8,713 bases of DNA from a virus (taxonomy: Duplodnaviria; Heunggongvirae; Uroviricota; Caudoviricetes). The notes below the pieces were generated by a model. That model was not told the origin of the DNA. It did no database searches and worked only from the letters and a program-made list of their open reading frames with translations. The stretch lies in IMG/VR virus record IMGVR_UViG_2675903578_000007. One strand, given 5' to 3'. This document shows positions 87 through 6,877 of the stretch, piece after piece. Both the position numbers and the translations under genes were made by a program. Position 1 is the stretch's first letter; the number at the start of each line of letters is the position of its first letter.

Positions 87-302
87 ATGTATCAGATGGA
101 AAAAATATCAACAGGCATTGCCTACGGCACCTCCGCCGGCAGTGCCGGCTACTGGTTTTTGCAGTGGTTGGATCAGGTCAGTCCATCACAGTGGGCTGCG
201 ATTGGTGTGCTGGGAAGTCTGCTTCTGGGGCTTCTGACTTATCTGACAAATCTGTATTTCAAAATAAGAGAAGACAAGCGTAAGGCTGCGAGAGGTGAAT
301 AA
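87..302 (+). CDS. S: Class II holin, phage 21 S21-like pinholin (71 aa) with dual-start motif
   Basis: 71-aa [74 protein letters not shown]. It has a Gly/Ala-rich weakly hydrophobic first helix, a second hydrophobic helix and a basic C-terminal tail, near-identical as recalled to phage 21 S21. Met codons at 1 and 4 (87 and 96) form a dual-start motif. Stop TAA at 300-302 overlaps the next ATG (TAATG). Confidence 0.93.
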
Positions 303-799
303 TGTCGCCATCATTACGCAAGGCTGTTGCAGCTGCTATTGGTGGTGGGGCTGTTGCTATAGCATCTGTGTTAATCACTGGCCCAGGTGGTAACGATGGT
401 CTGGAAGGTGTCAGCTACATACCATACAAAGATATCATTGGTGTATGGACTGTATGTCACGGACACACCGGAAAAGACATCATGCTCGGTAAAACGTATA
501 CCGAAGCAGAATGCAAAGCCCTCCTGAATAAAGACCTTGCCACTGTCGCCAGACAAATTAACCCGTACATCAAAGTCGATATACCGGAAACAACGCGCGG
601 CGCTCTTTACTCGTTCGTTTACAACGTGGGTGCTGGTAATTTCAGAACATCGACGCTTCTTCGCAAAATAAACCAGGGCGATATCAAAGGCGCATGTGAC
701 CAGCTACGTCGCTGGACATATGCTGGCGGTAAGCAATGGAAAGGGCTGATGACCCGTCGTGAGATTGAGCGTGAAGTCTGTTTGTGGGGGCNNNNNNNN
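302..799 (+). CDS. R: SAR endolysin (phage 21 R21-like lysozyme with N-terminal signal-anchor-release domain); last codons and stop are masked
   Basis: ORF from ATG 302; N-terminal Gly/Ala-rich SAR segment [23 protein letters not shown] followed by a lysozyme core ([27 protein letters not shown]...). 163 codons are visible up to 790 (ending ...EVCLWG). End coordinate is estimated from the 165-aa length recalled for R21-family proteins; the true stop lies inside the N run. Confidence 0.9.
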
Positions 800-1218
800 N
801 NNNNNNNNNNNNNNNNNNNNNNNNNNNNNNNNNNNNNNNNNNNNNNNNNNNNNNNNNNNNNNNNNNNNNNNNNNNNNNNNNNNNNNNNNNNNNNNNNNNN
901 NNNNNNNNNNNNNNNNNNNNNNNNNNNNNNNNNNNNNNNNNNNNNNNNNNNNNNNNNNNNNNNNNNNNNNNNNNNNNNNNNNNNNNNNNNNNNNNNNNNN
1001 NNNNNNNNNNNNNNNNNNNNNNNNNNNNNNNNNNNNNNNNNGCAGTCTGTCAGTCAGTGCGTGAAGCCACCACCGCCTCCGGCGTGGATAATGCAACCAG
1101 CCCCCGACTGGCAGACACCGCTGAACGGGATTATTTCACCCTCAGAGAGCGGCTGATGACGATGCAGATGCAACTGGAAGGGGCACAGGAGTATATCCGC
1201 ACTCAGTGCATTAAGTAG
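784..1218 (+). CDS. Rz: Rz i-spanin (lambda Rz-like); N-terminal part masked
   Basis: Visible C-terminus 1042-1218: [58 protein letters not shown], near-identical as recalled to the lambda Rz C-terminus; stop TAG 1216-1218. In this frame the last stop before the mask is at 772-774 and a GTG sits at 784, so the start is at 784 or inside the mask. Confidence 0.85.
1042..1156 (+). CDS. Rz1: Rz1 o-spanin, embedded in Rz in the +1 frame (visible C-terminal part; start masked)
   Basis: Alternate-frame translation [37 protein letters not shown], with the proline-rich run typical of lambda Rz1; stop TGA 1154-1156. Start and lipobox lie in the N run; a 60-aa length as recalled for lambda Rz1 would put the start near 975. 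Confidence 0.8.
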
Positions 1219-1260
1219 CCTTTTTATCGTGGTAAACATTTCGCAGGGTATGAGGTATTT

Positions 1261-1611
1261 ATGCCATCACTAATCCCACGTGCCTGCCGTAAGCGTGGAT
1301 GTGCAGGTACAACCACAGACAGTTCGGGTTACTGCGATAAACATCGCGGTGAAGGCTGGGTGCAGCACCAGCGCGGACTGAGCCGCCACCAGCGTGGCTA
1401 TGGCTCAAAATGGACGGTGATTCGTGCCCGTATTCTGAAGCGCGATAAAGGTCTGTGTCAGTTGTGTCTGCGTGTCGGTGTGGTGAGCGAGGCGAAAACC
1501 GTCGACCACATCATCCCGAAAGCGCATGGCGGAACAGACGCAGACAGCAACCTGCAGAGTCTGTGCTGGCCCTGCCATAAAGCGAAAACAGCGCGCGAAC
1601 GAATCCGGTGA
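1261..1611 (+). CDS. HNH endonuclease (phage HNH, zinc-binding; HK97 gp74-like position after the lysis cassette)
   Basis: 116-aa ORF with ATG 1261 preceded by GAGGT. N-terminal Cys cluster CRKRGCAGTTTDSSGYCDKH and an HNH core DHIIPKAHGGTDADSNLQSLCWPCHKAKTARE. Stop TGA 1609-1611. Confidence 0.9.
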   Translation: MPSLIPRACRKRGCAGTTTDSSGYCDKHRGEGWVQHQRGLSRHQRGYGSKWTVIRARILKRDKGLCQLCLRVGVVSEAKTVDHIIPKAHGGTDADSNLQSLCWPCHKAKTARERIR

Positions 1612-1901
1612 TAATTATTCTCACTTGTAGGGAGGGGCGGGGCAAATNNNNNNNNNNNNNNNNNNNNNNNNNNNNNNNNNNNNNNNNNNNNNNNNNNNNN
1701 NNNNNNNNNNNNNNNNNNNNNNNNNNNNNNNNNNNNNNNNNNNNNNNNNNNNNNNNNNNNNNNNNNNNNNNNNNNNNNNNNNNNNNNNNNNNNNNNNNNN
1801 NNNNNNNNNNNNNNNNNNNNNNNNNNNNNNNNNNNNNNNNNNNNNNNNNNNNNNNNNNNNNNNNNNNNNNNNNNNNNNNNNNNNNNNNNNNNNNNNNNNN
1901 N

Positions 1902-2084
1902 AAATGCCCTGTGCCATCCTCAGCCGAAACCTCCAGCGCCTCCGGCATGGGCAATGATGCCACCGTCGAACTCTCTCCAGTTGCTGGACGAAACGTTCTC
2001 GGTATCCGGGACGGAATCATCAGCGACCAGACAGCATTGAGAATGCTTCAGGAGTACATCAGGATCCAATGCCTTGGGGGGTAG
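1902..2084 (+). CDS. Second Rz-family i-spanin (divergent paralog), visible C-terminal part; N-terminus masked
   Basis: Visible translation ...SSAETSSASGMGNDATVELSPVAGRNVLGIRDGIISDQTALRMLQEYIRIQCLGG aligns without gaps to the first Rz C-terminus with 19 of 52 identical residues, including ASG, QEYIR and QC. Stop TAG 2082-2084. A strong SD-like GGGAGGGG at 1630-1637 just before the mask suggests a start near 1650, giving about 145 aa (inference). Confidence 0.7.
   Translation, partial: KCPVPSSAETSSASGMGNDATVELSPVAGRNVLGIRDGIISDQTALRMLQEYIRIQCLGG
1903..2040 (+). CDS. Second Rz1-like o-spanin, embedded in the +1 frame of the second Rz (visible C-terminal part)
   Basis: +1 frame translation NALCHPQPKPPAPPAWAMMPPSNSLQLLDETFSVSGTESSATRQH with stop TGA 2038-2040. 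The proline-rich PPAPPAW.M.PP core matches the [11 protein letters not shown] core of Rz1. Lying wholly inside the Rz-like ORF mirrors the lambda Rz/Rz1 arrangement. Confidence 0.6.
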   Translation, partial: NALCHPQPKPPAPPAWAMMPPSNSLQLLDETFSVSGTESSATRQH

Positions 2085-2172
2085 CGGTAATTTTACTCAT
2101 TATCCTTCAAATCAGATTCTGTTGTCAGAGGAATGGGGGAAGCTGGATTCGCAAGAGCTTTTTATGGGCAGT

Positions 2173-2682
2173 TTAGCTAAAAAAAGGCAACACGAAGCTA
2201 AAACTACCAACATAAAGTGCTGACCAGCTAGCAGCTGAAATCAGACTCACTGTATACACTTTCACTGGATGAAGTTGCAACATTCCTGCCACCAAAGGAG
2301 CAATATAACGCAGCACGGCGATAAAGCGCGAAGTGAAAAGTATTGACACAGAGTTATTTTGCAACTGAAGGCGAACCCGTTCTATTGTATTGGAACGGCT
2401 TGATATTATACATGCAAGTTGAGGGATATGCCCAATTATTATACCAAGATGGTAATTAACGATAGTACCGCACCATGCGCCACTCATGACCGTGATTCCA
2501 GCTTCCCATGGTGAAAGAGTCGTCTTGCTGACTGTAATTACAGTGGCCATCATAATTGATGCTGGTGGCAATATCGCCGAAATGAGTAAAGTGGATTTTG
2601 TGAACGCTATTATAAAAAGAAGCCCCCATAGGCGATATGGATGAAGTACAAAATAGTTCATCAAAGCATTTATCCACTCCAT
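2173..2682 (-). CDS. DedA/YqaA-like (TVP38/SNARE-associated superfamily) inner-membrane protein; prophage moron on the opposite strand
   Basis: 169-aa minus-strand ORF (ATG at 2682, stop at 2173-2175) with an AAGGAAAG ribosome-binding site upstream on the minus strand. It is predicted polytopic, and its segments LLISAILPPASIMMATV, GAWCGTIVNYHLGI and RFIAVLRYIAPLVAGMLQL resemble YqaA/DedA motifs as recalled. The gene and flanks are visibly AT-richer than the neighbouring late genes and read against them. Confidence 0.65.
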   Translation of the reverse strand: MEWINALMNYFVLHPYRLWGLLFIIAFTKSTLLISAILPPASIMMATVITVSKTTLSPWEAGITVMSGAWCGTIVNYHLGIIIGHIPQLACIISSRSNTIERVRLQLQNNSVSILFTSRFIAVLRYIAPLVAGMLQLHPVKVYTVSLISAASWSALYVGSFSFVLPFFS

Positions 2683-2879
2683 CAATGTCTTTCCTTCTGT
2701 GAATTTTTCTTTGCTATTTAACCGTGATACGACTTAATTTAGGCTTAAACACCTTACATTTACAAGGTACTCCTGTGGGGGGCCCTGCCACGGAGCGTCG
2801 CAGGAGTGAGTGATGAGGAAGAATTAAAGCAACCTATTGTGACAGGCAGCGATAACAGTAAATCACAGGAAGCATAATC

Positions 2880-3644
2880 ATGGCAAAACCGGACTGGGAG
2901 GCCATCGAATCGGCATACCGGGCCGGAGTCCTTAGCCTCCGTGATATAGGCGAGAAATACGGCGTTACAGAAGGGGCTATCAGGAAGAGGGCCAAAAAGC
3001 TTGGTTGGGCACGCAGTGGCGGTACGCAGGTTTGCAAAAATGGTACGCAAAAAAGGAAAGTGCGTACCAGCAGAAAGCCTGCCATTACTGGCCTTACACA
3101 AAAAAGTACGCAACTAAAAACAGAATCTACACCGGATACGAAACCGATACGCGGAATGCGTACCGATCCCCCGACTAACCCATTCCAACCCGGTAACCAG
3201 CAGGCATTAAAACACGGTGGTTATGCCCGTCGCCTTCTGCTCAAAGATGAGGTGATAGAGGACGCTAAAGCGTTGACGCTCGAGGACGAATTATTTCGCC
3301 TTCGTGCTAACAACCTTGTCGCTGCAGAGAATATTGGTCGGTGGTTGGTGTCGCTGGAAGATGCTAATGGGGACCAGGAAAGGAAGATGCTGATTGAAAA
3401 TATCAGCGCCGCCGAGAAAGCAATGATGCGCAATACAGTTCGTATTGAGTCCATCGTTGGCACGCTTGCGACGGTAGGAAAAATATTTGCTGATACAGCC
3501 TACCGCAAGGCCGCCACTGATAAGGTGTCTCTGGAGGCTGATCGTCTTCGCCGTGATGCAGGTATTGATGATGGCAATGGAGAGCGTGACCTCAATGACT
3601 TCTACTCTGACATCCAAACCGACGCTGAATCCGGCTTTACGTAG
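2880..3644 (+). CDS. Terminase small subunit (N-terminal HTH DNA-binding domain)
   Basis: 254-aa ORF with ATG 2880 preceded by AGGAAG. N-terminus MAKPDWEAIESAYRAGVLSLRDIGEKYGVTEGAIRKRAKKLGW is the typical HTH start of phage small terminases; it sits directly upstream of the large terminase. Stop TAG 3642-3644. Confidence 0.88.
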   Translation: MAKPDWEAIESAYRAGVLSLRDIGEKYGVTEGAIRKRAKKLGWARSGGTQVCKNGTQKRKVRTSRKPAITGLTQKSTQLKTESTPDTKPIRGMRTDPPTNPFQPGNQQALKHGGYARRLLLKDEVIEDAKALTLEDELFRLRANNLVAAENIGRWLVSLEDANGDQERKMLIENISAAEKAMMRNTVRIESIVGTLATVGKIFADTAYRKAATDKVSLEADRLRRDAGIDDGNGERDLNDFYSDIQTDAESGFT

Positions 3645-3654
3645 TTTCTGGACT

Positions 3655-4998
3655 ATGCGGGCACGTAACAAAGTGCTTTATGGTGGTCGGTCATCGTCAA
3701 AATCATGGGATGCCGCTGGCATTGCCATATTTCTGTCGAATAAATACACCCTGCGTTTTTGTTGTGCCCGTCAGATCCAGAATAAAATCGAAGAGTCGGT
3801 GTATACCCTGCTCAAAATTCAGATAGACAGGTTTGGTCTGCGGCACCGTTTCCGTATTCTGAACAACAAAATCATTAACCGGGTTACTGGCTCGGAATTT
3901 GTTTTTTATGGATTATGGCGCAACATCGAAGAAATTAAGTCACTGGAGGGGATCGATGTGTTGTGGCTGGAAGAAGCCCACGCACTGACGGAATACCAGT
4001 GGAAAATTCTGGAGCCAACGATCCGTAAAGAGGGTTCGGAATGCTGGTTCATATTCAACCCCGGACTTGTTACTGATTTCGTCTGGCGCAACTTCGTTGT
4101 TGATCCGCCCGAAGGCACTCTCATCCGCAAAATTAACTATGACGAAAATCCGTTTCTGTCTGACACCATGCTTAAGGTTATCGACGCGGCGCGACGCCGT
4201 GATCCGGATGGTTTTAAACATGTGTATGAGGGCGTTCCGGAGTCTGATGATGATGCGGCAATCATCAAACTGTCTTGGATAGAAGCCGCAGTGGATGCGC
4301 ACAAAACGTTAAATTTCGAACCCAGTGGAAGAAAGCGTATTGGCTTTGACGTGGCTGACAGTGGTACAGATAAGTGCGCTAACGTTTACCGTCACGGATC
4401 CGTTGTTTTCTGGGCCGACGAATGGAAGGCCAAAGAAGATGAATTACTGAAGAGCTGCCAGCGTACTTATCAGGCGGCGCTGGAGCGTGAAGCAGATATT
4501 GTTTACGACTCTATCGGTGTTGGTGCGTCTGCCGGTGCTAAATTCTCTGAAATTAACGCTGACCGGAAGAGCGAGAACGCATACGCGCGACGTGTGAATT
4601 ACCAGAGGTTTAACGCCGGTGCTGGTGTGCATGAGCCAGATGACGAGTACAACGGCATCCCCAACAAAGACTTTTTCGCAAATCTTAAGGCTCAGGCATG
4701 GTGGCTGGTGGCTGACCGTTTCAGAAATACGTTTAACGCCATTAACAACGGAGAACAGTATCCTGTGGATGAGCTGATCAGCATAGATTCTCGTTGTCCG
4801 TTGCTTGAAAAGCTGAAACTGGAACTGACAACACCTCATCGTGATTTCGACCGTAACGGACGTGTGATGGTCGAAAGTAAAAAAGACCTCGCAAAACGCG
4901 AGATACCGTCACCAAACGTTGCTGATGCATTCATTATGGCCTTCGCGCCAATCGATACATCGCTGGATATCTGGGAACAGCTGGGGAGACAGGCCTGA
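3655..4998 (+). CDS. Terminase large subunit (ATPase/nuclease, PBSX/T4-like family)
   Basis: Long ORF with Walker A-like YGGRSSSKSWDAAG and Walker B-like VLWLEEAH motifs near the N-terminus and a C-terminal nuclease-like region. Start chosen at the first ATG after the small-subunit stop (3655); the tool start at 3487 would overlap the small subunit by 158 nt. Stop TGA 4996-4998 overlaps the next ATG. Confidence 0.9.
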   Translation: MRARNKVLYGGRSSSKSWDAAGIAIFLSNKYTLRFCCARQIQNKIEESVYTLLKIQIDRFGLRHRFRILNNKIINRVTGSEFVFYGLWRNIEEIKSLEGIDVLWLEEAHALTEYQWKILEPTIRKEGSECWFIFNPGLVTDFVWRNFVVDPPEGTLIRKINYDENPFLSDTMLKVIDAARRRDPDGFKHVYEGVPESDDDAAIIKLSWIEAAVDAHKTLNFEPSGRKRIGFDVADSGTDKCANVYRHGSVVFWADEWKAKEDELLKSCQRTYQAALEREADIVYDSIGVGASAGAKFSEINADRKSENAYARRVNYQRFNAGAGVHEPDDEYNGIPNKDFFANLKAQAWWLVADRFRNTFNAINNGEQYPVDELISIDSRCPLLEKLKLELTTPHRDFDRNGRVMVESKKDLAKREIPSPNVADAFIMAFAPIDTSLDIWEQLGRQA

Positions 4999-5984
4999 TG
5001 GCACGAAACAAACAAGCCCTGCGGCGAACTGTGCAGGCCACAGCTGATGGTTATGAGAATTTTATTGCCCGCGTAGGGATGCAGACACCTAACCAGCACT
5101 CAGCATCCACCTACCGGGCTAATTTCACCAGTCGTAACCGCATGCTGGTGGAATGGTCCTATCGTTCATCCTAGATCATCGGCGAAGCAGTCGATGCTAT
5201 CCCGGATGATATGACCCGCAAAGGCATTCGCATCACTTCGGAAATTGATGCAAAAGATCGTGGCATTCTCGAATCACAACTGGATGAGTTGCAAATCTGG
5301 GATGCGCTGAATGACGTGCTGAAATGGTCGCGCCTCTACGGCGGCGCGGTGGGTTTCATCATGATTGAGGGGTAGGCACCAATGACCCCGCTGCGACCCG
5401 AAACCATCGGTAAGGGCAAGTTTAAGGGGATTCTCCCGCTCGACCGCTGGATGGTCGACCCGGCACTGACCCGCCGCATTAAAGATATGGGGCCGGACCT
5501 GGGTAAACCTGAGTTTTACGATGTGGTGACCACAGCAACGGGAATTCCTGCCTGGCGCATTCATCACAGTCGCCTGATTCGCTTTGATGGCGTCACGTTG
5601 CCATTTCAGCAGAAGATGACCGAGAACGAATGGGGAATGTCGGTTGTAGAGCGTATCTGGGATCGTCTTACCGCGTTCGACAGCGCTACTGTCGGCGCGG
5701 CGCAGCTGGTCTACAAGGCGCATTTGCGTACCTACAGCGTGGAGAAGCTACGCGAGCTTATCGCACTTGGTGGTCCTGCGTATGAAGCGTTGCTGAAGAA
5801 TATCGACCTGATTCGACAGTTCCAGAGTAATGAAGGCATGACGCTCATGGACTCGCGGGATAAGTTTGAAACCCATCAGTACAGCTTCAGTGGTCTGGAT
5901 GACATCCTTTCGCAGTTTGTAGAACAGATTAGTGGCGCTGTTGGTATCCCACTGGTGCGGTTGTTCGGACAGTCCCCGAAAGGA
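4998..5984 (+). pseudogene. Portal protein (DUF1073/HI1409-like family), interrupted by two in-frame TAG codons; C-terminus masked
   Basis: One reading frame gives MARNKQALRR...LVEWSYRSS-TAG(5172-5174)-IIGEAVDAIPDDMTRKGIRI...WSRLYGGAVGFIMIEG-TAG(5373-5375)-APMTPLRPETIGKGKFKGILPLDRW... and stays open to the mask at 5985. Both stops were checked codon by codon, and the flanking segments look coding in the same frame. Position after the large terminase and before the MuF-like gene fits a portal. Confidence 0.8.
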
Positions 5985-6241
5985 NNNNNNNNNNNNNNNN
6001 NNNNNNNNNNNNNNNNNNNNNNNNNNNNNNNNNNNNNNNNNNNNNNNNNNNNNNNNNNNNNNNNNNNNNNNNNNNNNNNNNNNNNNNNNNNNNNNNNNNN
6101 NNNNNNNNNNNNNNNNNNNNNNNNNNNNNNNNNNNNNNNNNNNNNNNNNNNNNNNNNNNNNNNNNNNNNNNNNNNNNNNNNNNNNNNNNNNNNNNNNNNN
6201 NNNNNNNNNNNNNNNNNNNNNNNNNNNNNNNNNNNNNNNAC

Positions 6242-6874
6242 AGTATCACGGAAATTATTGCGGCGCTGGAGCGTTACAGTGAAATCATCACCCCCTGGGC
6301 GACAAAGGTCGCGGAAAACTTTACTGCGGACCTAACCCGGCAGAACGAGAAAGTTTGGCGGCAACACAGCAAGAACATCAGTCGCGAGCTCCGCAATCTT
6401 GTGGAAAGCGCTCCTGTGGGCCAGGTGATGCAATCCATCATCGCCGAACAGGTCAAGTACATCAAATCTCTGCCTCTCGAGGCCGCAGACAGGGTGTACG
6501 ACATCCAGAACAAAGCGATAGAGGCTGTTGTCACCGGTGGTCGGGCGGAGCAGTTTGCTAAAGAGATTGCATCTACCGGCGATGTTGCTAAGTCTAGGGC
6601 CGATCTGATTGCCCGAACGGAACTGGGAAGAGCAACGGGCGCGCTGGATATGGCCCGAGCGATAGCTATTGGCTCGGATGGTTATATTTGGCGTACAGCC
6701 GATGATGGCGATGTCCGAGATTCCCACGATCACATGAAAGGTAAATTCGTCCGCTGGGATTCACCTCCAACTTTGGACGGCATGACCGGCCACGCGGGCG
6801 AGCTGCCAAACTGCCGCTGCTATAAAGAGATCGTGTTTGTTCGCGTTCCATTCGCAATGAAAAGGGCAGCATAA
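6242..6874 (+). CDS. Phage head morphogenesis protein (Mu F / SPP1 gp7-like); N-terminus masked
   Basis: Frame is open from the mask edge: ...SITEIIAALERYSEIITPWATKVAENF...ADLIARTELGRATGALDMARAIAIGSDGYIWRTADDGDVRDSHDHMKGKFVRWD..., a MuF-like C-terminal signature. Stop TAA 6872-6874. The tool's start at 6401 is an internal GTG. Confidence 0.85.
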   Translation, partial: SITEIIAALERYSEIITPWATKVAENFTADLTRQNEKVWRQHSKNISRELRNLVESAPVGQVMQSIIAEQVKYIKSLPLEAADRVYDIQNKAIEAVVTGGRAEQFAKEIASTGDVAKSRADLIARTELGRATGALDMARAIAIGSDGYIWRTADDGDVRDSHDHMKGKFVRWDSPPTLDGMTGHAGELPNCRCYKEIVFVRVPFAMKRAA

Positions 6875-6877
6875 CCC

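What the first reader, a model, noticed from the sequence alone, without database searches (positions are those of the whole stretch)
1042..2084. Two divergent Rz/Rz1 spanin modules in tandem, separated by an HNH endonuclease gene
The first module (ending 1218, Rz1 ending 1156) is lambda-like. About 0.9 kb downstream, after the HNH gene, a second ORF ends with a C-terminus that aligns gap-free to Rz at 19 of 52 identities and contains its own proline-rich embedded +1-frame ORF resembling Rz1. A lysis cassette normally has one spanin pair, so a second divergent complete-looking pair suggests a mosaic junction between two lysis cassettes, or HNH-associated insertion of a foreign module. Two gene-within-gene pairs in 1 kb is unusual.
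Basis: partly seen in the sequence, partly recalled or inferred. Interest (0 to 1): 0.6.

Follow-up and report, generated by a model that had tools for sequence, protein, structure and literature searches.

The report
Two prophage spanin genes joined across a gap
The two spanin gene pairs are real, but they belong to two different defective Shigella sonnei prophages that lie about 2 Mb apart in finished genomes, and here they are joined only across an unsequenced assembly gap, so the tandem arrangement is most likely an assembly artefact and otherwise ordinary.

Summary
The visible sequence is as described. Bases 1042-1218 and 1902-2084 encode Rz C-termini, each with a +1-frame Rz1 tail, and all four fragments pass Pfam thresholds. 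The two Rz C-termini align gap-free at 19/53 identities.

The N runs are native scaffold gaps, not length-true masks. Relatives that are 100% identical on both sides hold 292 and 479 nt where the window has 250 and 255 N. Two public S. sonnei drafts carry their own N runs (279 and 51 N) that end at exactly base 1902. In both, the B-type lysozyme lies to the left of the gap.

The first part (holin, endolysin, Rz/Rz1, HNH) is 100% identical to an SfV-like cos prophage. There the HNH gene is the last gene before cos and a P27-type terminase. The visible sequence stops 18 nt before the SfV cos end.

The second part (Rz', DedA, terS, terL ... IS1) is 100% identical to another S. sonnei prophage remnant, which lies about 2.1 Mb away in the opposite orientation.

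No Rz-HNH-Rz arrangement was found in about 130 long Shigella contigs, 5,426 E. coli genomes, 50,697 phages or 80 HNH-bearing viral contigs.

Verdict: most likely a scaffold join (about 0.8), less likely a real illegitimate junction near cos. Whether the second pair is complete cannot be told from this window. Low interest.

The parts
87..302 (+). Class II holin (71 aa, phage-21 S-like), part of segment S1 (1-791), prophage type A
   Evidence: ORF. PHROG holin families at E 3e-36. PF04971 on the identical gene in L003.
302..791 (+). Endolysin (lysozyme, 165 aa in relatives). The last 2 codons and the stop are hidden in the first gap.
   Evidence: ORF. PF00959 on the same gene in L003. S1 differs from Shigella type A by two synonymous changes only, at 631 and 637.
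792..1041 (.). N run 1 (250 N). Type A relatives hold 292 nt here: the end of the lysozyme gene, Rz codons 1-96 and Rz1 codons 1-23.
   Evidence: Window 791 = L003 3489 and window 1042 = L003 3782. Sequence.
1042..1218 (+). First i-spanin Rz, visible 3' part (codons 97-154), lambda-like
   Evidence: PF03245 at 78 bits. 100% identical to L003 3782-3958.
1043..1156 (+). First o-spanin Rz1, visible 3' part, embedded in the +1 frame
   Evidence: PF06085 at 68 bits. The full 60-aa protein with lipobox VVGC is in L003.
1261..1611 (+). HNH endonuclease (116 aa), the cos-associated packaging type
   Evidence: PF01844 at 60.6 bits. Followed by Terminase_4/TerL/portal in all 34 contigs read and in 80 viral contigs. 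It is the last gene before the genome end in SfV and before the annotated cos site in phiP27.
1612..1647 (+). Start of the cos region of the SfV-like prophage (left arm GGGGCGGGGCA of an inverted repeat). The visible sequence stops 18 nt before the SfV genome end.
   Evidence: Alignment A1. SfV and SfIV records start at L003 4406.
1648..1901 (.). N run 2 (254 N): a scaffold gap that contains the only link between the two prophage types. True content and length are unknown.
   Evidence: The same right-hand boundary appears in the N runs of two other drafts, L140/L151 (279 N) and L152 (51 N), where the truly hidden lengths are 402 and 390 nt.
1902..2084 (+). Second i-spanin Rz' (type B prophage), visible 3' part, codons 97-156 of a 156-aa protein
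   Evidence: PF03245 at 31.4 bits. PHROG 13 at E 2e-18. 100% identical to L025 4801-4983.
1903..2040 (+). Second o-spanin Rz1', visible 3' part, codons 24-68, embedded in the +1 frame
   Evidence: Translation. PF06085 at 66 bits. The full 68-aa protein with lipobox in L025.
2173..2685 (-). DedA-family membrane protein gene (cargo gene of prophage B, opposite strand)
   Evidence: ORF. PF09335. Annotated as DedA family protein WP_011069285.1.
2880..4998 (+). Prophage B's own packaging genes: small terminase (2880-3644) and PBSX-type large terminase (3595-4998)
   Evidence: PHROG 370 terminase small subunit at E 7.5e-95 and PHROG 3717 terminase large subunit at E 1.2e-83. PF04466.

Best explanation
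The window is a piece of a short-read draft scaffold of a Shigella sonnei-type chromosome. It is made of four contigs separated by gap Ns: S1 1-791, S2 1042-1647, S3 1902-5984 and S4 6240-8713.

S1 and S2 come from a defective SfV/HK97-like cos prophage, here called type A. Its order is holin, endolysin, Rz/Rz1, HNH, cos, P27-type terminase.

S3 and S4 come from a different defective prophage, type B. Its order is endolysin, Rz'/Rz1', DedA cargo gene, its own terS and terL, a broken portal gene, and an IS1 cut.

The two prophages share a nearly identical endolysin gene and Rz 5' region. Short reads cannot resolve this repeat. The scaffolder strung the 606-bp contig S2 and the type B contig S3 one after the other behind S1.

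Each prophage in fact has one ordinary embedded spanin pair. The second 'module' is simply the 3' part of type B's single pair. Its holin, endolysin and Rz' 5' part lie in the unresolved repeat or on another contig.

Shown: the identity of every segment, the gap nature of the N runs, and the absence of this adjacency elsewhere. Inferred: that the S2-S3 join is a scaffolding error rather than a strain-specific rearrangement.
For: 1. N-run lengths are wrong. Loci that are 100% identical on both flanks hold 292 nt (L003) and 479 nt (L025, L027, L028, L031 and 8 more) where the window has 250 and 255 N.
2. Two public drafts have their own N runs ending at exactly window base 1902: GCA_001251035.1 CWVJ01000181.1 (279 N) and GCA_001258635.1 CWWM01000185.1 (51 N). 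The true interval there is about 400 nt, and the type B lysozyme lies on the left. Three gap-free contigs from other NCBI assemblies (L141-L143) start at or 1 nt before that base.
3. Contigs that begin at window base 1042 are on record in 94 blocks of the collection. This shows a recurrent assembly break point at Rz codon 97.
4. S2 is 100% identical to type A loci and S3+S4 are 100% identical to type B loci, including the IS1 junction at 8623/8624.
5. In CP104423.1 the two lie at 0.93 and 3.08 Mb in opposite orientation.
6. In the long contigs read, HNH is followed by Terminase_4 in every place shown (34 contigs read). In the type B look-ups (36, 30 and 28 contigs read) Rz' is preceded by lysozyme or cut by an IS in every place shown, and never preceded by HNH.
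7. No record joins S2 and S3 in 5,426 E. coli genomes or 50,697 phage records.
8. None of 80 HNH-bearing viral contigs has an Rz gene downstream of HNH.
9. S2 ends in pure type A sequence, with no trace of type B, and no useful microhomology exists between the A and B flanks.
10. S1 carries two clustered synonymous changes (631T, 637T) that are absent from all Shigella A and B loci but present in other lambdoid lysozyme alleles. This is what a consensus over collapsed paralogues would give.
Against: - The source record could not be found. Exact-pattern scans of genome, viral and metagenome contigs were negative. I therefore could not inspect its gap annotation or its reads.
- Scaffolders usually need read pairs between neighbouring contigs, and I cannot name the pairs that would link S2 to S3 in a standard genome.
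- The type A sequence stops 18 nt short of a cos cleavage site, which is a plausible place for a real DNA break.
- Only the 24 blocks with the longest contigs were read per look-up, and at most 10 places were listed.
Confidence: 0.8

Rival explanations
1. Real strain-specific rearrangement. The right arm of the SfV-like prophage, broken at or near its cos site (for example by in-situ terminase/HNH cleavage), was joined illegitimately to the type B prophage inside or just upstream of Rz'. This would leave Rz/Rz1-HNH followed by a relic Rz'/Rz1' in one late transcription unit of a dead chimeric prophage.
For: - The visible type A sequence ends 18 nt before the position where the SfV and SfIV genome records end and begin.
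- Shigella prophages are heavily rearranged. S. flexneri type B remnants have Rz' cut by an IS 63 nt upstream of window base 1902.
- S1 is type A and lacks the IS2 and IS110-family insertions found upstream of type B in S. sonnei.
Against: - The arrangement was never seen in any finished or long contig, nor in E. coli, phage or viral collections.
- No microhomology exists between the flanks.
- The junction itself is unsequenced.
- Sibling drafts with the same gap boundary have the normal neighbour.
- Protein searches found no junction-spanning ORF.
Confidence: 0.14
2. A mobile HNH homing endonuclease carried a foreign spanin module into a resident lysis cassette.
For: HNH genes can be mobile, and several phage records label this gene 'homing endonuclease'.
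Against: - Where flanks are present, the gene sits at a fixed place: after the lysis genes and before cos and a P27-family terminase.
- This is the arrangement described for cos-associated packaging HNH proteins (PMC3592412, abstract seen).
- Relative to type B, the 'inserted' DNA is simply contiguous type A prophage sequence, 100% identical to it.
Confidence: 0.03
3. A functional two-spanin lysis system, in which both pairs are intact and expressed and give the phage redundancy or a wider host envelope range.
For: Both visible parts are uninterrupted. They keep the conserved C-terminal Cys of Rz and the proline-rich Rz1 core.
Against: - Both parent prophages are dead in this lineage. The portal gene is split into 58-, 54- and 360-aa pieces and the head genes are cut by IS1 at 8624. 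The type A portal gene is cut by IS4.
- The S. sonnei Rz' allele carries Arg in place of Cys18 inside its membrane helix.
- The adjacency is unverified.
Confidence: 0.03

Closest known systems
Lambda-type two-component spanin Rz/Rz1 with embedded architecture (Pfam PF03245 + PF06085, PHROG 13)
   Same: Both visible Rz tails and both +1-frame Rz1 tails match the family models above threshold. Full-length relatives have the N-terminal membrane helix, the lipobox Cys and the embedded gene layout.
   Different: Nothing new in the proteins. The first pair is 100% identical to Shigella SfV-like prophage genes and the second is 100% identical to the S. sonnei type B prophage genes. Only the apparent tandem order is unusual, and it rests on a gap.
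cos-associated HNH endonuclease of HK97/SfV/phiP27-type phages (HK97 gp74 type)
   Same: Same domain, same size and same position: last gene before cos, next to a P27-family small terminase in all relatives. General description in PMC3592412.
   Different: In the window as given, its terminase partner is missing. It is followed instead by another phage's Rz', DedA and a PBSX-type terminase set that does not use it.
Scaffold gaps and mis-joins at inter-prophage repeats in short-read Shigella drafts
   Same: N runs of unreliable length, the same gap boundary in independent drafts, a short contig flanked by gaps, and an adjacency absent from finished genomes.
   Different: I could not retrieve the source record or its reads, so the mis-join is inferred and not demonstrated.

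Membership tests
Two-component spanin, i-spanin Rz (PF03245) | Sequence match to the Rz family model | tested here: met
   Window 1042-1215 scores 78.1 bits and window 1902-2081 scores 31.4 bits, against a threshold of 25.4. PHROG 13 at E 1e-23 and 2e-18.
Two-component spanin, i-spanin Rz (PF03245) | N-terminal transmembrane helix and own start codon | not testable with these tools
   Both 5' parts lie in N runs (792-1041, 1648-1901). Full-length relatives start MSRVTAIISALVICIIVCLSW. The S. sonnei type B allele has R at residue 18.
Two-component spanin, o-spanin Rz1 (PF06085) | Proline-rich lipoprotein gene embedded in the +1 frame of Rz | tested here: met
   +1-frame translations of 1043-1153 and 1903-2037 score 67.8 and 65.8 bits, against a threshold of 27.9.
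Two-component spanin, o-spanin Rz1 (PF06085) | Signal peptide with lipobox Cys | not testable with these tools
   Hidden in the N runs. Relatives have MRKLKMKLCALMLPLVVVGC (type A) and MRKLKMMLFGASLIMVVGC (type B).
Lysis cassette (holin-endolysin-spanin) | Spanin pair directly downstream of its own endolysin gene | tested here: inconclusive
   The first pair follows the endolysin across gap 1, as in L003. The second pair is preceded by HNH plus a gap in the window, but by a lysozyme gene in every intact type B locus read. In the S. flexneri-type remnants Rz' is cut by an IS instead.
cos-associated packaging HNH (HK97 gp74 type) | HNH motif, about 110-120 aa, gene adjacent to cos and to a small and large terminase | tested here: met
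   HNH domain. In relatives it is followed by Terminase_4 and TerL. SfV genome end and phiP27 cos-site annotation are 54-71 nt downstream. In the window itself the terminase partner is absent.
Homing HNH endonuclease cassette | Presence/absence polymorphism at a fixed target site in otherwise colinear genomes, carrying flanking foreign DNA | tested here: not met
   The DNA flanking HNH on the left is contiguous type A prophage sequence at 100% identity. No type B locus with an HNH insertion was found.
Native scaffold gap / possible mis-join | N-run length disagrees with finished relatives, and the same boundary recurs in other drafts | tested here: met
   250 N against 292 nt and 255 N against 479 nt. 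N runs of 279 and 51 end at the same base in L140 and L152.
Native scaffold gap / possible mis-join | The adjacency contradicts finished genomes of the same lineage | tested here: met
   Types A and B lie at 0.93 and 3.08 Mb of CP104423.1 in opposite orientation. No HNH -> Rz' adjacency appears in any place shown from the 128 long contigs read.

The most novel reading that the evidence does not exclude
The join is real. In one S. sonnei strain the right end of an SfV-like prophage, broken at cos, was fused without homology to the Rz' gene of a second prophage 2 Mb away (an inversion end-point). This would create a late operon with two different embedded spanin pairs and an orphan packaging HNH. 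It would be a rare footprint of in-situ cos cleavage driving chromosome rearrangement.
Probability: 0.12. Interest if true: 0.3.

Novelty: not a real feature. Interest (0 to 1): 0.08.

Why it matters
It matters mainly as a caution. Runs of N in a window may be scaffold gaps rather than masks. Their length carries no reading-frame information, and gene order across them is not evidence of linkage.

The genes themselves are ordinary and already known: Rz/Rz1 spanins, a cos-associated HNH, a DedA cargo gene and terminases of two Shigella prophage remnants.

If the join were real, it would be a modest curiosity about prophage decay and possibly about cos-initiated rearrangement. It would not be a new lysis mechanism.

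Tried and rejected
1. Reading the hidden bases from a public copy failed.
- Exact bridging patterns from the HNH end to the Rz' tail, with gaps of 240-268, 269-299 or 0-30 nt to the Rz' start, found nothing in genome contigs or viral contigs.
- The S1-specific 40-mer and 115-mer found nothing in genome contigs or metagenome contigs. They found only 89-97% relatives in viral contigs.
- The best E. coli match to S1 is 98.9%.

2. I first treated the N runs as length-true masks and the 158-codon ORF 1608-2084 as an HNH-overlapping fusion. I rejected this for three reasons.
- The lengths disagree with identical relatives.
- In type A the frame from 1608 meets a TGA 9 nt after base 1647.
- A database search with the hypothetical fusion found no protein covering its N-terminus.

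3. I considered a designed mask over a direct repeat. It does not fit. The two Rz types are only about 50% identical without gaps over the last 49 hidden nt, and the third N run is not a repeat.

4. I considered an IS hidden in gap 2, as in S. flexneri type B remnants. This cannot be excluded, but the S. flexneri break point differs, and the junction protein P0121 belongs to that type.

5. De Bruijn k-mer arithmetic on the contig ends (80, 84 and 90 nt into repeats) gave no single k, so I dropped it.

7. The promoter and terminator scan added nothing.

Full report
WHAT IS VISIBLE

The window has three runs of N: 792-1041 (250), 1648-1901 (254) and 5985-6239 (255). They split it into four readable segments: S1 1-791, S2 1042-1647, S3 1902-5984 and S4 6240-8713.
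- S1 carries a 71-aa class II holin gene (87-302) and a lysozyme gene from 302.
- S2 carries the last 58 codons of an Rz gene (to 1218), the tail of an embedded +1-frame Rz1 (to 1156) and a 116-aa HNH endonuclease gene (1261-1611).
- S3 starts with the last 60 codons of a second Rz gene (to 2084), with the tail of a second +1-frame Rz1 (to 2040). It continues with a DedA-family gene on the other strand (2173-2685), a small terminase gene (2880-3644), a PBSX-type large terminase gene (3595-4998) and a broken portal gene.
- S4 ends 90 nt into IS1.

CHECK OF THE OBSERVATION

All four spanin fragments pass curated Pfam thresholds. Rz scores 78.1 and 31.4 bits against PF03245 (threshold 25.4). Rz1 scores 67.8 and 65.8 bits against PF06085 (threshold 27.9). 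Both Rz tails also match PHROG 13, Rz-like spanin. The sequence-level observation is therefore correct.

WHERE THE SEGMENTS COME FROM

S2 is 100% identical over all 606 nt to a prophage found in several Shigella chromosomes (L003, L005, L007-L009, L012). S1 differs from it at two synonymous positions only. I call this type A.

In all 34 contigs read, type A runs holin, lysozyme, Rz (154 aa), HNH, then a P27-family small terminase, TerL, portal and HK97-type protease and capsid. Its HNH-to-terminase spacer and terminase start are 100% identical to the left end of the Shigella phage SfV and SfIV records. Those records begin at L003 4406. The SfV record's right end aligns up to L003 4405. PhiP27 has an annotated cos site in the same spacer.

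The HNH gene is therefore the ordinary last gene before cos of an SfV/HK97-like phage. This is the arrangement described for cos-associated HNH proteins (PMC3592412). Window base 1647 corresponds to L003 4387, 18 nt before that cos end.

S3 and S4 are 100% identical to a second prophage remnant, including the IS1 junction at 8623/8624 (L025, L027, L028, L031). I call this type B. Type B runs IS2, lysozyme, Rz' (156 aa), DedA, terS, terL, a portal gene split into 58-, 54- and 360-aa pieces, and so on to IS1.

One of the genomes with this exact structure is HE616528.1. From my own knowledge of the accession, this is S. sonnei 53G.

In CP104423.1, type A lies at about 0.93 Mb and type B at about 3.08 Mb, in opposite orientation. 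The two prophages share an almost identical lysozyme gene and Rz 5' region (98% over 746 nt). They diverge only about 19 nt into Rz1.

THE N RUNS ARE SCAFFOLD GAPS

- Type A relatives hold 292 nt between the bases matching window 791 and 1042, not 250.
- Twelve type B loci hold an invariant 479 nt between the bases matching 5984 and 6240, not 255.
- A look-up of the exact 60-aa partial product of 1902-2081 returned two draft assemblies whose scaffolds have their own N runs, of 279 and 51 N. These are GCA_001251035.1 CWVJ01000181.1 and GCA_001258635.1 CWWM01000185.1.
- Both N runs end at exactly the base matching window 1902. The truly missing intervals are 402 and 390 nt. In both, the contig left of the gap is the type B lysozyme, the true neighbour.
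- Three gap-free contigs from other NCBI assemblies (L141-L143) start at or 1 nt before the same base.
- The 58-aa partial product of 1042-1215 is on record in 94 blocks, from contigs that begin at that base and continue into HNH and the P27 terminase.
- Base 1902 and base 1042 both correspond to Rz codon 97, so this is a recurrent assembly break point. Rz'-tail sequences occur in up to five places in related genomes, which is the kind of repeat that produces such breaks.

It follows that the length of N run 2 says nothing about what it hides. The 158-codon ORF 1608-2084 listed is an artefact of translating N. The order S2 then S3 is a scaffolder's decision, not sequence.

IS THE ORDER FOUND ANYWHERE ELSE?

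No.
- A query spanning S2, the gap and S3 found no record that joins the two parts in 5,426 complete E. coli genomes or 50,697 phage records.
- In the long Shigella contigs read around HNH, DedA, the DUF2213 head protein and the 58-aa portal fragment (34, 36, 30 and 28 contigs), HNH is followed by the P27 terminase in every place shown. Rz' is preceded by lysozyme, or cut by an IS in S. flexneri types, and never preceded by HNH.
- In 80 HNH-bearing viral contigs, any Rz gene lies only upstream of HNH.
- Protein searches with a hypothetical HNH-downstream/Rz' fusion and with Rz1' found no junction-specific product.
- The A and B flanks share nothing longer than 10 nt.

BEST EXPLANATION (ABOUT 0.8)

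A short-read scaffolder met a repeat, the lysozyme 3' end plus the Rz 5' part. This repeat has two exits, S2 of prophage A and S3 of prophage B. The scaffolder chained both behind S1.

Each prophage has one normal embedded spanin pair. The 'second module' is the 3' part of type B's only pair.

The two clustered synonymous differences in S1 (631T, 637T) are absent from every Shigella A and B locus but present in other lambdoid lysozyme alleles. They fit a consensus over collapsed paralogues.

What is inferred, not shown, is the scaffolding error itself. I could not find the source record or its reads.

RIVALS

- A real junction (about 0.14) would be an illegitimate fusion of prophage A, broken at or near cos, to prophage B at or before Rz' codon 97. 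Its proximity to the cos end (18 nt) is the only positive hint. Depending on the break point, Rz' would be complete or 5'-truncated. Rz1' needs only about 85 nt upstream of base 1902 (start at L025 4733, with an AAGGAG ribosome-binding site) and so would probably be intact.
- A homing-HNH insertion (about 0.03) is contradicted by the fixed cos-adjacent position of the gene, and by the fact that the 'insert' is contiguous type A DNA.
- A functional dual-spanin system (about 0.03) is unlikely. Both prophages are dead in this lineage: the portal is split, IS1 and IS4 cut the head genes, and the membrane helix of the S. sonnei Rz' carries an Arg.

COMPARISON WITH KNOWN SYSTEMS AND NOVELTY

The proteins are members of the lambda Rz/Rz1 embedded two-component spanin family, as far as the visible halves allow. 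The full-length relatives meet the remaining criteria of membrane helix, lipobox and embedding. The HNH gene matches the cos-associated packaging HNH class by domain and by context in all relatives.

Nothing here departs from known kinds. The only unusual element, two pairs in tandem, is most likely not a feature of the genome. Interest is low.

Noticed in passing
window 8624-8713: The left end of an IS1 element cuts prophage B just after the 168-aa cement-protein gene. The same junction is present in S. sonnei-type chromosomes (L024-L033) but not in the E. coli-labelled relatives L023, L026, L029 and L032.
   Followed up: partly
window 4998-6240: The portal gene of prophage B is a pseudogene. 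There is a stop after 58 codons (5172-5174), and in identical relatives the gene is called as 58-, 54- and 360-aa pieces. Its 3' part is hidden by the third N run, which stands for 479 nt in relatives.
   Followed up: partly
window 631 and 637: Two synonymous GGC>GGT changes lie 6 nt apart in the lysozyme gene. They are absent from all Shigella type A and B loci fetched. The same 40-mer occurs in 14 more distant lambdoid prophage contigs. This suggests a collapsed-paralogue consensus or a short gene-conversion tract.
   Followed up: partly
window 1042 and 1902 (Rz codon 97 in both genes): Contigs from many independent assemblies (ENA metagenome scaffolds and NODE contigs, gap-free NCBI drafts, scaffolded drafts) begin at exactly these bases. 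Rz genes of lambdoid prophages appear to share a sharp mosaic boundary just after the Rz1 lipobox, where N-terminal and C-terminal modules are reassorted.
   Followed up: partly
window 1625-1647 and L003 4365-4440: A GC-rich inverted repeat (GGGGCGGGGCA ... TGCCCGCCCC), followed by a T run, surrounds the SfV-type cos end. PhiP27's annotated 10-nt cos site is the right arm. The window's readable sequence stops just after the left arm.
   Followed up: partly
L025 4563 (hidden in the window): The S. sonnei allele of Rz' has Arg instead of Cys at residue 18, inside the membrane helix (IIVRLSW against IIVCLSW in E. coli-labelled relatives). This is a likely sign of decay of the relic lysis gene.
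   Followed up: no
window 2173-2685 (- strand): A DedA-family (VTT domain) membrane protein gene sits on the opposite strand between the spanin genes and the small terminase gene of prophage B. It is a cargo ('moron') gene conserved at 100% in thousands of assemblies.
   Followed up: no
proteins P0101 and P0034: Two unrelated N-terminal partners (a RusA-like protein and another protein) are fused to the same point of B-type Rz, at residues ...D|ISALVICIIV. This hints at a recurrent deletion or recombination end-point at Rz codon 8 in some E. coli prophages.
   Followed up: no
window 87-791: The first cassette resembles the phage 21 lysis cassette. It has a 71-aa class II holin with two closely spaced Met starts (MYQMEK) and a lysozyme with an uncharged Gly/Ala-rich N-terminal stretch typical of signal-anchor-release endolysins. 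This reading rests on my knowledge of phage 21 and was not tested here.
   Followed up: no
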